NCBI GenBank assembly: GCA_025930495.1
Contig: JAICOU010000001.1
Location: 11,867 to 75,866 of the forward strand
Length of the DNA: 64,000 bases
From: Nitrososphaeraceae archaeon
Lineage (GTDB): Archaea; Thermoproteota; Nitrososphaeria; Nitrososphaerales; Nitrosopumilaceae
Reading direction: 5' to 3'
The notes under the pieces were generated by a model, which worked only from the letters and a program-made list of their open reading frames with translations, was not told where the DNA came from and did no database searches. This document shows positions 61,850-64,000 of this stretch, piece after piece (position 1 is the stretch's first letter; the number at the start of each line of letters is the position of its first letter). The translations under genes were made by a program, and so were the position numbers.

Positions 61850-62464
61850 ATGCAAATAAGGCAATTGAAATCAAAGTGTAATAAAGAAAATATTGCAAAA
61901 GCGAGTAAAATAATCAAAAATGGAGGTATTGTTGTTTTTCCAACAGACACAGTATATGGAATTGGTTGTGATCCATACAATAAAGAAGCAATTAAAAGAA
62001 TTTACAAAATCAAATCAAGGGAAATTTCAAAATCGCTTCCAATTTTGGCTTTTTCAAAAGAGATTGCAGAAAAAATTGTAGAATTTGACAAAGATTCAGA
62101 AAAGATTGCACAAAAAAATTGGCCAGGGCCTCTAACTTTAATTTTAAAATTAACAGATAAAAAACTTAAAGCGTCGCTAAATGGTGTTGACAAAATTGCA
62201 ATTAGAGTTCCAAAACATCAATGTACATTAGAATTTTTAAAAAAATGTGATTTTATTATTGGAACAAGCGCAAATATTTCTGGAGATGGCCCATTTAGAA
62301 ACCCACAAGAGTGTTATCAAAACATACACGATTTTGATCTTTTTTTGGATGGGGGGACAATAACAAGTGAAGGAGAATCAACAATAATTGAATTTGAAGA
62401 AGGAAAATTAAAAATTCACAGAGAAGGAGTTTTAACACGAAATGAGATCTTGAAAATACTTTGA
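61850..62464 (+). CDS. sua5: L-threonylcarbamoyladenylate synthase Sua5/TsaC (YrdC domain only)
   Basis: FPTDTVYGIG, IYKIK.R, WPGPLT, TSANISG and STI motifs. Confidence 0.9.
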   Translation: MQIRQLKSKCNKENIAKASKIIKNGGIVVFPTDTVYGIGCDPYNKEAIKRIYKIKSREISKSLPILAFSKEIAEKIVEFDKDSEKIAQKNWPGPLTLILKLTDKKLKASLNGVDKIAIRVPKHQCTLEFLKKCDFIIGTSANISGDGPFRNPQECYQNIHDFDLFLDGGTITSEGESTIIEFEEGKLKIHREGVLTRNEILKIL

Positions 62465-62982
62465 ATCTAATAATTACATGTGCCAGACATTTGGAATTAG
62501 AAACGAGACAAGAATTATTAGATATTTTAGAAAAACTAGGAGACTCGGAACCTAAAATAACTATCACAAATATGTCGGGAATTTTGACTGCTGAAACAAA
62601 ATTGGAACCAATAGTGATGGTAAAAAAAATCAAAGAAATGTTACTAGATGAGCCATGGTGTATTAGATATTGTCTTAGAATAATCCCTATTCAAAAAATT
62701 ACAGAAACTAAGATTGAGAGCATCGAAGATGGAATTTCAGATTTAATTAAATTGATTTCTGATGGAGAGTCATATAGGATATCAATTGAGAAAAGAAATT
62801 CTAACATTTCAAGTCAAGAATTAATTTCTAGAATAGCAAAAAAAATTAAAAACAAAGTATCATTAGAATTTCCTGATAAAATTATATTAATTGAAGTATT
62901 GGGAAATCAAACTGGAATTGCAATTGTCAAAAAAGAAGATGTTTTGAGTGTAGGAAAAACTAAAAGAAGCATATCAGAGTAA
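62461..62982 (+). CDS. THUMP-domain RNA-binding protein
   Basis: SYRISIEKR...V.L..PD..I.IEV THUMP pattern. Confidence 0.8.
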   Translation: MNLIITCARHLELETRQELLDILEKLGDSEPKITITNMSGILTAETKLEPIVMVKKIKEMLLDEPWCIRYCLRIIPIQKITETKIESIEDGISDLIKLISDGESYRISIEKRNSNISSQELISRIAKKIKNKVSLEFPDKIILIEVLGNQTGIAIVKKEDVLSVGKTKRSISE

Positions 62983-63747
62983 AATAACAGCTTTTTCTAT
63001 TAGTATATCTTCAAGAGGATTTTTTGACAAAACTACATCAAGTTGTTTATCTGTTATTTGAAAATATTTTTTTATAAATGAAGTATTATCTTTTGAGAAT
63101 ATTTTAACAGACATAAAACTTAATTCTTTATAAAGTGCATCTAAGATTTTTTTATTGCCAAGTGCAATCAGTACAAAATTTTGTTGTGATTTGATTCCAG
63201 CAGAATTAATTGCAGAAGAAATTTGTGACGAAATAGCAAAGCGCATTAAAATATCCATTTCAAATTTGTTTGAAAGTAAAATATTGTTTTTATTAGAAGA
63301 GATAGATAAGGAAATAATTTTTTTTAGATGATAATTATTTAGAATAAAATTACTAGATATGGCCTGAAGTTTAATTCCAGGAAATTGTTTTCGGAGCGTA
63401 TCAATATACGTAATGTCAATTTGTTTTTGACCTTGAATTTCAATTACCTGAACTAATTTATTTGAAACATTAAAAATCAGTCTTTTAGATGAACCTCCGT
63501 GAATAACAGGAATTATACTTACTACATCATCATTTTTTATTTTAGTCATTTTTCCTTCCATTGCAGAAGAATCGACACCATTAATCGCTATCAATATATT
63601 TTCAACATCCAAGCTAGGAGTGCTAGCCGGTTTTAGTTCTAATAGTAAAACAAGGAGTTCTTGAATGGTAATATCAGATTTATCAATTTTTAATGTATCA
63701 GTAAAAAAGGACTTTTTTGCCCCTCCTACGAGTTTAATCATTATCAT
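62974..63747 (-). CDS. cgi121: Fusion of a ubiquitin-like MoaD/ThiS/SAMP domain to KEOPS subunit Cgi121
   Basis: N-terminal beta-grasp ends INGVDS...DDVVSIIPVIHGG. The C-terminal half has E.DILMR...SSQIS.AI...G...LEDILIEKA (Cgi121). Confidence 0.8.
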   Translation of the reverse strand: MIMIKLVGGAKKSFFTDTLKIDKSDITIQELLVLLLELKPASTPSLDVENILIAINGVDSSAMEGKMTKIKNDDVVSIIPVIHGGSSKRLIFNVSNKLVQVIEIQGQKQIDITYIDTLRKQFPGIKLQAISSNFILNNYHLKKIISLSISSNKNNILLSNKFEMDILMRFAISSQISSAINSAGIKSQQNFVLIALGNKKILDALYKELSFMSVKIFSKDNTSFIKKYFQITDKQLDVVLSKNPLEDILIEKAVILL

Positions 63748-63798: not shown

Positions 63799-64000
63799 TT
63801 ATTCTTCTATGACTTTACTTGTTTCTGAGTCAGATGTTATTGCAATGATTTCCTCTTCAATGGTATCATCTTCAGAAATTTTCTCTTCCAGAGTATAATT
63901 TTCAATTCTAGAAGATTCTATTTGAGATTGTTTTGCTTTTTCCTCACGGTTTTCTTTTTTAATAAATTTAGTAATGTAACCTGCAATTTCATTTTTTAGT
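63799..64000 (-). CDS. rps17e: 30S ribosomal protein S17e, 5' end outside the window, with acidic C-terminal tail
   Basis: Manual translation LKNEIAGYITKFIKK...EEEIIAITSDSETSKVIEE*, resembling the S17e RN.IAGYIT motif. Confidence 0.8.
   Translation of the reverse strand, partial: LKNEIAGYITKFIKKENREEKAKQSQIESSRIENYTLEEKISEDDTIEEEIIAITSDSETSKVIEE

What the first reader, a model, noticed from the sequence alone, without database searches (positions are those of the whole stretch)
61850..63747. tRNA-modification cluster with a ubiquitin-like domain fused to Cgi121
Seen in sequence: sua5 and a stand-alone THUMP gene overlap and converge on a gene whose beta-grasp domain ends in an internal IHGG, followed by Cgi121. 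Established knowledge: Sua5 and KEOPS make t6A, and SAMP/Urm1-type proteins need a free C-terminal GG for sulfur transfer or conjugation; Ubl-Cgi121 fusions are, to my recollection, already noted in thaumarchaea. Inference: cleavage after GG (by a JAMM-type protease) would release an active Ubl plus Cgi121, like eukaryotic ubiquitin-fusion precursors, linking t6A to thiolation or protein tagging.
Basis: partly seen in the sequence, partly recalled or inferred. Interest (0 to 1): 0.55.

Follow-up and report, generated by a model that had tools for sequence, protein, structure and literature searches.

The report
Ubiquitin-like domain fused to KEOPS Cgi121
An ammonia-oxidising archaeon (Nitrosarchaeum-like) makes its only copy of the tRNA-modification subunit Cgi121 joined to a small ubiquitin-like protein; the fusion was published in 2010, and comparison with relatives suggests, without proving, that it is cut at an invariant Gly-Gly into two working proteins.

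Summary
Window 62974-63747 (-) encodes a 257-aa protein. Residues 1-85 form a Urm1/SAMP-type beta-grasp that ends in H83-G84-G85. Residues 89-257 are Cgi121, the only Cgi121 found in a 99%-complete genome. A short TsaC/YrdC-type "sua5" and a THUMP-only (Tan1-like) gene overlap each other and converge on it. rpS17e and tatD lie upstream.

The fusion is already published (Makarova & Koonin 2010, PMC2948915).

- HGG is present in 168/168 fused homologs, while the linker after it varies in length and sequence.
- The residue after GG is small and never Pro.
- The AF2 model is confident everywhere except residues 83-86.
- Aigarchaeota, Nitrosocaldus, Nitrosocosmicus and other lineages carry the same two modules as adjacent, often in-frame genes. 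There the Ubl ends at GG-stop or at GG plus 1-7 residues.
- The fused/split state changed at least 2-3 times on the tree.
- The genome's only other Ubl is also fused, to the sole E1, and also keeps an internal GG.
- Two intact JAMM proteases are core genes of the family.

Best reading (about 0.55): a precursor cut after G85 by a JAMM protease, as shown for SAMP1-MoaE and MoaD-MoaE. Cleavage itself is untested. The kind is known, so interest is moderate.

The parts
61850..62464 (+).
   Evidence: PF01300 E 1e-51 and TIGR00057 at 167 bits against a cut-off of 123. No Sua5_C domain in the genome.
62461..62982 (+). Stand-alone THUMP-domain protein (Tan1-like), 173 aa. Its TTG start overlaps the tsaC stop by 4 nt.
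   Evidence: PF02926 E 9e-8. Cluster members are named 'tRNA acetyltransferase TAN1' or 'THUMP domain-containing protein'. Synteny with tsaC holds in 31 of 34 family loci.
62974..63747 (-). Ubl-Cgi121 fusion gene, 257 aa plus stop. It is the only Cgi121 found in the genome.
63493..63747 (-). Urm1/SAMP-type beta-grasp domain, residues 1-85
   Evidence: ThiS PF02597 at 29.3 bits. Foldseek matches 2g1e, SAMP1 2l52, Urm1 2k9x and S. solfataricus Urm1 4wwm. The model is a beta-grasp with pLDDT above 85.
63493..63501 (-). Invariant H83-G84-G85; proposed cleavage after G85
   Evidence: Translation. Invariant in 41 and in 50 diverged fusions, and GG is present in 168/168 fused homologs. Residues 83-86 are the only segment of the model with pLDDT below 50.
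62977..63483 (-). Cgi121 domain, residues 89-257
   Evidence: NF011465 at 167 bits. Foldseek matches 4ww7_B at E 2e-8, plus 8up5_C, 7kjt_H and 8k20_C, with TM-scores on the target of 0.6-0.76.
63799..64000 (-). 3' part of ribosomal protein S17e, 51 nt upstream of the fusion gene. The gene runs off the window end; the whole gene is L013:2323-2643 (-), with tatD upstream of it.
   Evidence: PF00833 E 6e-17 and TatD PF01026 E 5e-45.

Best explanation
The gene encodes a two-module precursor. An N-terminal Urm1/SAMP-type ubiquitin-like protein is joined end to end, by about three residues, to the cell's only Cgi121.

**Origin.** The fusion probably arose from an older gene pair, rpS17e - Ubl (ending GG-stop) - cgi121, through loss of the stop codon between two in-frame, abutting genes.

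**Proposed mechanism.** After translation, one of the two JAMM/MPN+ metalloproteases cuts after G85. The best candidate is JAB1-type (G000 C110:64763-65062), because it is the one retained in streamlined relatives. Cleavage would give two products:
- a free Ubl ending in HGG, which the genome's single E1 can adenylate, for protein conjugation as in Sulfolobales Urm1, or for sulfur transfer to the NcsA-like tRNA thiolase, or both;
- a Cgi121 of normal length that joins Bud32, Kae1 and Pcc1 in KEOPS for t6A synthesis.

**Shown here:** domain identities, GG invariance, the split orthologs, and the presence of the partner enzymes.

**Inferred:** the cleavage itself, which protease does it, and what the freed Ubl does.
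For: 1. **Conservation at the junction.** H83, G84 and G85 are three of only ten invariant columns in 50 fusions that are 24-86% identical to the query. The linker after them varies in length and sequence. GG is present in 168/168 fused homologs. The residue after GG is S, A, Q, T or G and never P, although P is common one position later.
2. **Model.** AF2 gives a mean pLDDT of 92.8, and residues 83-86 are the only segment below 50. The first strand of Cgi121 starts at residue 89.
3. **Split orthologs**.
   - Five Aigarchaeota genomes have S17e - Ubl ending exactly in HGG-stop. In four of them Cgi121 starts 3 nt later in the same frame; the fifth contig (L050) ends just after the Ubl.
   - Ca. 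Nitrosocosmicus has a Ubl ending HGG-stop.
   - G369, Nitrosocaldus and G332 have tails GGS, GGCL and GGAS, each followed by Cgi121.
   - Free metagenomic homologs end in GG or in GG plus 2-7 residues.
4. **Tree.** The fused/split state needs at least 3 changes, of which 2 are forced by well-supported branches. The breaks fall right after GG.
5. **Inventory of the 99%-complete genome.**
   - Only two ThiS-type Ubl domains were found. Both are fused and both keep an internal GG: Ubl-Cgi121, and Ubl-E1 with ...AVAGG|SEE.
   - One E1 and no MoaE.
   - An NcsA-like PP-loop enzyme.
   - Two Prok-JAB genes with an intact E...HxHx7SxxD motif.
6. **JAMM distribution.** Prok-JAB was found in 61/61 genomes of the family, or 60/60 without the unpublished G429. 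The 0.8-Mb genomes keep both fusions but only the JAB1 type.
7. **Precedent.** HvJAMM1 cuts a SAMP1-MoaE linear fusion exactly after GG in vivo and in vitro (PMC4443979). DR0402 cuts the natural MoaD-MoaE fusion of Deinococcus (PMC8832034).
Against: - There is no direct evidence of cleavage: no proteomic termini and no size data.
- The fusion has been kept in every sampled genome of the family (61/61). That would also fit a permanent two-domain protein.
- Neither JAMM gene lies next to the fusion, to the E1 or to any Ubl gene, so no protease is tied to the site.
- Cgi121, unlike MoaE, has no known need for a Ubl C-terminus, so cleavage is not mechanistically required on the Cgi121 side.
- GG could be kept as a hinge.
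- The homologs are related, so counts such as 168/168 overstate independence.
Confidence: 0.55

Rival explanations
1. Permanent two-domain subunit. The protein is not cut. The beta-grasp stays on Cgi121 as an extra KEOPS domain, for example as a docking surface for the E1, for NcsA, or for proteasome or chaperone partners. HGG is kept as a flexible hinge or as a non-covalent binding element.
For: - The fusion is stable across the whole family (61/61). It also arose or persisted in other lineages, including Nitrososphaera-type MAGs and G221.
- The Ubl and cgi121 genes are tightly coupled even when split, with gaps of 0-3 nt. That would fit two proteins that act together physically.
- No JAMM gene is linked to the locus.
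Against: - An internal GG cannot be adenylated by an E1, which is established Ubl chemistry, yet HGG is more conserved than almost all of the protein while the linker next to it is free to vary.
- Sister lineages work with separate proteins whose Ubl ends at GG.
- The junction is the only poorly modelled segment, and pTM is only 0.68 against a pLDDT of 92.8, so the model offers no confident fixed arrangement of the two domains; inter-domain contacts were not inspected.
- With both Ubls uncleaved, the genome's E1 would have no substrate at all.
Confidence: 0.27
2. Cleaved, but with no functional link to KEOPS. The fusion is a neutral read-through of two translationally coupled genes of the rpS17e operon. 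The freed Ubl is a general Urm1-like modifier, and Cgi121 is only a co-expressed passenger.
For: - Sulfolobales keep the S17e-Urm1 pair although they lack Cgi121 (PMC2948915).
- Ca. Nitrosocosmicus has S17e-Ubl followed by a KH-domain-like gene (my reading of the sequence; not scanned), not by cgi121.
- In Thermoprotei MAGs the same Ubl is fused to a phosphoribosyltransferase instead.
- The state flips easily on the tree.
- Sulfolobales Urm1 modifies hundreds of proteins (PMC12625751).
Against: Ubl-cgi121 adjacency recurs in Aigarchaeota, Nitrosocaldus, Nitrososphaeraceae, f30, f28 and f35. That is wider than expected for a chance neighbour.
Confidence: 0.15
3. Artefact. The 'fusion' is a sequencing or assembly error, or a mis-called ORF, joining two separate genes.
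For: Separate in-frame genes exist in related lineages. One family genome, G107, shows an in-frame TGA.
Against: There are uninterrupted full-length matches in 60 other genomes of the family, many of them closed single-contig assemblies, and hundreds of metagenomic copies of 255-261 aa.
Confidence: 0.01

Closest known systems
Ubl-Cgi121 fusion of Thaumarchaea, described by Makarova & Koonin 2010 (Archaea 2010:710303, PMC2948915)
   Same: This is the same protein family and the same architecture. It has the same upstream rpS17e gene, and the accompanying Ubl-E1 fusion is also present here.
   Different: Nothing differs in kind. That paper proposed regulation of KEOPS by SAMPylation or coordinated function; in the passages I searched it does not discuss processing at GG. 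It had only Nitrosopumilus and Cenarchaeum type genomes. Here the fusion is not universal in the group: Nitrosocaldus, Nitrosocosmicus and G369 are split.
JAMM-processed linear Ubl fusions: natural MoaD-MoaE (DR2607) cut by DR0402 in Deinococcus, and SAMP1-MoaE cut by HvJAMM1 in Haloferax (PMC8832034, PMC4443979)
   Same: An N-terminal ThiS/MoaD-type beta-grasp has GG at the junction, a second protein follows directly, and small stand-alone JAMM/MPN+ proteases with an intact motif are encoded in the genome.
   Different: The partner is Cgi121, not MoaE, and it has no known use for a thiocarboxylate. Cleavage is not shown here, and the JAMM genes are unlinked to the locus.
Sulfolobales Urm1 (Saci_0669, SiRe_1713; structure 4wwm)
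   Same: It ends in H-G-G (H81-G82-G83, PMC12625751). It is encoded next to rpS17e (PMC2948915). It shares the beta-grasp fold (Foldseek hit) and gives a weak sequence match (E 0.2). It is a proven E1-dependent protein modifier (PMC4569737, PMC12645042).
   Different: It is free-standing with a free GG, and Sulfolobales lack Cgi121. Sequence similarity to the domain here is weak, so orthology rests mainly on synteny and the motif.
Eukaryotic ubiquitin-ribosomal protein fusion precursors (Ub-L40, Ub-S27a, Fubi-S30); from general knowledge, not tested here
   Same: A Ubl is made as a head-to-tail precursor with a protein of the translation apparatus, and GG sits at the junction.
   Different: The Ubl family, the partner and the protease class all differ. 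This is an analogy only.

Membership tests
Cgi121 (KEOPS subunit) | Sequence match to curated Cgi121 models | tested here: met
   NCBIfam NF011465 scores 167 bits against a cut-off of 40. Pfam PF08617 scores only 23.6 bits against a cut-off of 25.
Cgi121 (KEOPS subunit) | Cgi121 fold | tested here: met
   The AF2 model matches yeast, human, plant and archaeal Cgi121/TPRKB: 4ww7_B at E 2e-8, plus 8up5_C, 7kjt_H and 8k20_C, with TM-scores on the target of 0.6-0.76.
Cgi121 (KEOPS subunit) | KEOPS partners present in the same genome | tested here: met
   Kae1 is at C65:10660-11439 (242 bits) and Bud32 at C65:7513-8103 (216 bits against a cut-off of 125). Pcc1 was not searched.
Cgi121 (KEOPS subunit) | Binds Bud32 and the tRNA 3' CCA end | not testable with these tools
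   Needs biochemistry or a complex model.
Urm1/SAMP/ThiS-MoaD ubiquitin-like proteins | Beta-grasp fold and family profile match | tested here: met
   PF02597 scores 29.3 bits against a cut-off of 22.5. Foldseek hits SAMP1, Urm1, MoaD and CysO.
Urm1/SAMP/ThiS-MoaD ubiquitin-like proteins | Free C-terminal Gly-Gly | tested here: not met
   In the gene product as encoded, GG is internal (residues 84-85 of 257). The feature would be met only after cleavage. Free orthologs in sister lineages do end at GG.
Urm1/SAMP/ThiS-MoaD ubiquitin-like proteins | Cognate E1-like adenylating enzyme in the genome | tested here: met
   There is one ThiF/UbaA-type E1 (249 bits; UbaA model 222 bits). It is itself fused to a Ubl.
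Urm1/SAMP/ThiS-MoaD ubiquitin-like proteins | Thiocarboxylation or conjugation to targets | not testable with these tools
   Needs experiment.
JAMM-processed linear Ubl fusion precursors | N-terminal Ubl with GG exactly at the junction to the next protein | tested here: met
JAMM-processed linear Ubl fusion precursors | JAMM/MPN+ protease with an intact metal-binding motif in the genome | tested here: met
   There are two Prok-JAB genes (73 and 48 bits). E...HSHPx7SxxD can be read in both.
JAMM-processed linear Ubl fusion precursors | Observed cleavage after GG | not testable with these tools
   No proteomic or biochemical data are at hand.

The most novel reading that the evidence does not exclude
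The fusion is an obligate JAMM-processed precursor, and cutting it gates KEOPS. Cgi121 could enter the complex only after the Ubl is released, and the released Urm1-like Ubl would feed NcsA-type s2U34 thiolation or urmylation. Two anticodon-loop modifications of the same tRNAs, t6A37 and s2U34 (for example on tRNA-Lys-UUU), would then be produced in fixed proportion. It would be an archaeal counterpart of the eukaryotic ubiquitin-ribosomal protein precursors.
Probability: 0.15. Interest if true: 0.65.

Novelty: already known. Interest (0 to 1): 0.38.

Why it matters
In these archaea both ubiquitin-like proteins are made with their reactive Gly-Gly buried inside a longer protein. If the E1 has any substrate at all, proteolytic maturation must be an obligatory first step of the whole Ubl system. 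The Ubl-Cgi121 pair is a simple place to test that.

It would also test a proposal from 2010 that, in the literature I could search, has no experimental follow-up for this fusion: that archaeal Ubl systems are tied to tRNA modification. It bears on how ubiquitin came to be encoded as fusions with translation proteins.

The practical gain is small. The fusion and the protease mechanism are both known.

Tried and rejected
The genomic context of the metagenomic free Ubls (P0244, P0245, P0267) and of the short Cgi121s (P0158) could not be read. I used the genome search and the fetch from genomes instead.
- **Plain sequence search of the Cgi121 part against PDB** gave only noise-level hits (E 0.4-0.6, with Rab GTPases ranked above them). 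The fold search settled the identity.
- **The THUMP protein** had no meaningful PDB sequence match and no NCBIfam hit.
- **Pairing each JAMM with one fusion.** I looked at streamlined genomes that have a single JAMM. They keep both fusions, so no one-to-one pairing follows; the result only shows that the JAB1 type is the one retained.
- **A MoaD role** is rejected because there is no MoaE.
- **An internal translation start for Cgi121** is rejected. No conserved Met follows GG in the alignment.
- **A second, free Cgi121 or a free Ubl in the genome:** none was found with PF08617, PF02597 or PF09138. Very divergent small Ubls could still be missed.
- **Literature** searches for the fusion combined with JAMM, Urm1 or KEOPS found no experimental work on it after 2010.
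Full report
**1. What is there**

- **61850-62464 (+).** This is a 204-aa threonylcarbamoyl-AMP synthase (PF01300 E 1e-51; TIGR00057 at 167 bits). It is the short TsaC/YrdC form. No Sua5_C domain exists anywhere in the genome.
- **62461-62982 (+).** This is a 173-aa protein with only a THUMP domain (PF02926 E 9e-8). Its TTG start overlaps the tsaC stop by 4 nt. IMG names members of its 90% cluster 'tRNA acetyltransferase TAN1'.
- **62974-63747 (-).** This 257-aa ORF converges on the THUMP gene with a 9-nt overlap.
  - ThiS PF02597 covers residues 17-85 at 29.3 bits.
  - CGI-121 PF08617 covers residues 117-251 at 23.6 bits, just under the cut-off.
  - NCBIfam Cgi121 scores 167 bits.
  - The junction reads PVIHGG|SSK at 63484-63510.

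Upstream on the minus strand, and partly beyond the window, lie ribosomal protein S17e (51 nt away) and a TatD-type hydrolase. The closest homologs carry Nitrosarchaeum names.

**2. Structure**

I ran AlphaFold2 on a 50-sequence alignment.

- Mean pLDDT is 92.8.
- Residues 1-82 form a beta-grasp.
- The Cgi121 domain has its first strand at residues 89-94.
- Exactly one segment falls below pLDDT 50: residues 83-86 (HGGS).
- pTM is only 0.68, which fits two domains with no fixed mutual orientation.

Foldseek confirms both folds.

- The large domain matches Cgi121/TPRKB from yeast, human, Arabidopsis and Methanocaldococcus (E down to 2e-8; TM-score on the target 0.6-0.76).
- The small domain matches Ta0895, SAMP1, Urm1, MoaD, CysO and the Sulfolobus solfataricus Urm1 (4wwm).

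**3. Already published**

Makarova & Koonin 2010 (PMC2948915) describe several of these features:

- apparent co-transcription of the fusion gene with rpS17e in Nitrosopumilus maritimus;
- an S17e-Urm1-like gene pair in Sulfolobales;
- a Ubl-E1 fusion in Thaumarchaeota.

They proposed SAMPylation of KEOPS or coordinated function. I found no later paper that tests the fusion.

**4. Is the GG conserved?**

Yes.

- An exhaustive search of 50%-identity cluster representatives gave 265 hits.
- In 41 full-length fusions from that set (59% down to 28% identical to the query), H83, G84 and G85 are 100% invariant. In the 50-sequence alignment (24-86% identical) they are three of only ten invariant columns.
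- The stretch right after GG varies in both sequence and length, by up to about 30 alignment columns.
- Over all fused homologs fetched, 167 have GG at the expected place. The one apparent exception (P0154) is an N-terminally shortened sequence with HGG at residues 65-67.
- The residue after GG is S (133), A (20), Q, T, G, I, M, D or K, and never P. Yet P is the second most common residue one position further on (40 cases). That is what a protease site after GG would look like.
- These sequences are related, so the counts are not independent.

**5. Split relatives**

I searched 401 genomes of the phylum and read the regions.

- **Same family (Nitrosopumilaceae):** 61/61 genomes have an uninterrupted full-length match. 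One, G107, shows an in-frame TGA that I did not follow up.
- **Aigarchaeota/Caldarchaeales type (G264, G081, G246, G322, G377):** the order is S17e, then a Ubl ending exactly ...HGG-stop. In four of the five, Cgi121 starts 3 nt later in the same frame; the G322 contig (L050) ends just after the Ubl. Changing one stop codon would give a fusion with a two- or three-residue linker, which is what the window shows.
- **Ca. Nitrosocaldus cavascurensis (G339):** S17e, Ubl (...HGGCL), then an overlapping Cgi121.
- **G369 (Nitrososphaeraceae):** tatD, S17e, Ubl (...HGGS-stop), Cgi121.
- **Ca. Nitrosocosmicus franklandus (G359):** tatD, S17e, Ubl (...HGG-stop), with no adjacent Cgi121.
- **G332:** Ubl (...HGGAS) abutting Cgi121.
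- **G320:** Ubl ending ...HGG-stop.
- **Some 'Nitrososphaera sp.' MAG proteins** are fused (P0183 cluster, P0186).
- **G221,** in a different family, has a fused form with a linker of about 45 residues.
- **Two Thermoprotei-type MAGs (G239, G245):** the Ubl (HGGS) is fused to a phosphoribosyltransferase domain (PF00156 E 4e-25), and Cgi121 is the next gene.
- **Free metagenomic homologs** end in HGG (P0244, P0245, P0267) or in HGG plus 2-7 residues.

I built a quick maximum-likelihood tree of 41 Ubl+Cgi121 sequences rooted on the Aigarchaeota. It needs at least three changes of the fused/split state, two of them forced by well-supported branches. The split G369 sits inside the clade that contains the Nitrososphaera-named fused forms.

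The two states therefore interconvert, and the break always falls just after GG. Free Ubls with short tails after GG imply that trimming to GG is already needed in these lineages.

**6. The rest of the system in this genome** (1.40 Mb, 99% complete)

| Component | Result |
|---|---|
| ThiS-type Ubl domains | Two found, both fused with an internal GG: Ubl-Cgi121, and a 446-aa Ubl-E1 (C34:129-1469, ...LPAVAGG\|SEELS...) |
| E1 | That Ubl-E1 is the only E1 |
| MoaE | None, so a molybdopterin role is out |
| tRNA thiolase | A 304-aa PP-loop enzyme whose best models are NcsA/TtuA (193 bits, below the equivalog cut-off) |
| Kae1 and Bud32 | Both present |
| Second Cgi121 | None found |
| JAMM/MPN+ proteases | Two small Prok-JAB proteins with a readable E...HSHPx7SxxD motif. 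Their best NCBIfam model is the Haloferax desampylase, below its cut-off. Neither is next to a Ubl gene. |

Prok-JAB is present in 61/61 genomes of the family, usually in two copies. That tally includes the unpublished genome G429; without it the count is 60/60.

Three 0.8-0.9-Mb genomes of one genus have only the JAB1 type, yet they keep both fusions with GG intact. If a JAMM does the cutting, the JAB1 type is the better candidate.

**7. Mechanism**

Established chemistry says an E1 adenylates the free carboxylate of the terminal Gly. An internal GG is therefore inert.

Precise JAMM cleavage of linear Ubl fusions after GG has been shown twice:

- SAMP1-MoaE is cut by HvJAMM1 in vivo and in vitro, and deleting GG abolished detectable cleavage in vivo (PMC4443979).
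- The natural MoaD-MoaE of Deinococcus is cut by DR0402 (PMC8832034).

The Sulfolobales Urm1 has the same HGG end and the same S17e neighbour. It is a proven E1-dependent protein modifier (PMC12625751, PMC12645042).

Putting this together, the best reading is a precursor cut after G85 into a free Urm1-like Ubl and a Cgi121 of normal length. I put this at about 0.55.

- **Shown:** the anatomy, the conservation, the split orthologs and the enzyme inventory.
- **Inferred:** the cut, the protease, and the use of the Ubl. Conjugation is the better-supported use. Sulfur transfer to the NcsA-like enzyme is possible.

Rivals:

- **A permanent two-domain KEOPS subunit (about 0.27).** This fits the long-term stability of the fusion. 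It leaves the invariant GG and an E1 without substrate unexplained.
- **Cleavage with no real link to KEOPS (about 0.15).** The operon partners vary: Sulfolobales lack Cgi121, Nitrosocosmicus has no adjacent Cgi121, and Thermoprotei MAGs carry a PRTase fusion.
- **An assembly artefact.** This is excluded.

**8. The 'cluster'**

The order tsaC > THUMP > < Ubl-Cgi121 < S17e < tatD is kept in 31 of 34 family loci. Three same-genus genomes lack tsaC at that place. The cluster is two converging transcription units, so the grouping of tRNA-modification genes is conserved synteny and not one operon.

**9. Verdict**

It passes its own refutation test and gains comparative support, but cleavage is untested.
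- The fusion itself and the protease mechanism are both in the literature, so the class is 'already known'.
- The modest additions here are:
  - the fusion is not universal in the group;
  - it toggles with in-frame split genes whose Ubl ends at GG;
  - HGG is invariant, with a small, non-proline residue after it;
  - both Ubls of these genomes are made as internal-GG precursors.

**Limits**

Noticed in passing
L005:129-1469 (G000 C34, outside the window): The genome's only E1 (ThiF/UbaA type) is made as a Ubl-E1 fusion with an internal ...AVAGG|SEE. GG is also kept in three streamlined relatives (L058-L060). This fusion type is mentioned in PMC2948915. Both Ubl domains detected in the genome therefore have a buried GG.
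   Followed up: partly
L052:2125-3015 and L053:2095-3009: In two Thermoprotei-type MAGs the Urm1-like Ubl (HGGS) is fused to a phosphoribosyltransferase domain (PF00156 E 4e-25), and the next gene is Cgi121. The word 'phosphoribosyltransferase' does not occur in the 2010 survey.
   Followed up: partly
L061:1240-2175 (G221): A 311-aa Ubl-Cgi121 fusion occurs in a different family of the phylum. It has a linker of about 45 residues after HGG and is probably an independent fusion.
   Followed up: no
L062:13-1856 and L066:10-1772: A cysteine synthase-like gene, a JAMM gene and a Ubl gene lie in a row (in L066 the first two read as one ORF across a run of X). The Ubl has an internal ...IAGG followed by an extra domain of about 85 residues. 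This looks like a CysO/Mec+-type cluster with a fused Ubl (my reading of the sequences; not scanned against family libraries).
   Followed up: no
window 62461-62982: The THUMP-only gene overlapping tsaC is called Tan1 (the tRNA ac4C helper) by IMG. I did not search for a Nat10/TmcA-type acetyltransferase partner. It gave no NCBIfam hit and no PDB sequence hit.
   Followed up: partly
L003:374-1866 (G000 C110): The JAB1-type JAMM gene starts 3 nt after a 362-aa predicted membrane protein whose two C-terminal repeats look like cupredoxin domains (my reading; not scanned). The pairing is unexplained.
   Followed up: no
window 63799-64000 / L013:2323-2643: Ribosomal protein S17e here carries a long acidic, Ser/Glu-rich C-terminal tail (106 aa in total). 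The Aigarchaeota versions are 73-76 aa (105 aa as called from an upstream start in L051).
   Followed up: no
L017, L018, L019 (three genomes of the same genus): tsaC is missing from its usual place upstream of the THUMP gene, although the rest of the synteny is kept.
   Followed up: no
G107:C9:234427-235188: One family genome shows an in-frame TGA inside the otherwise full-length fusion gene. This could be a sequencing error, a pseudogene or a fresh split. I did not locate its position relative to GG.
   Followed up: no
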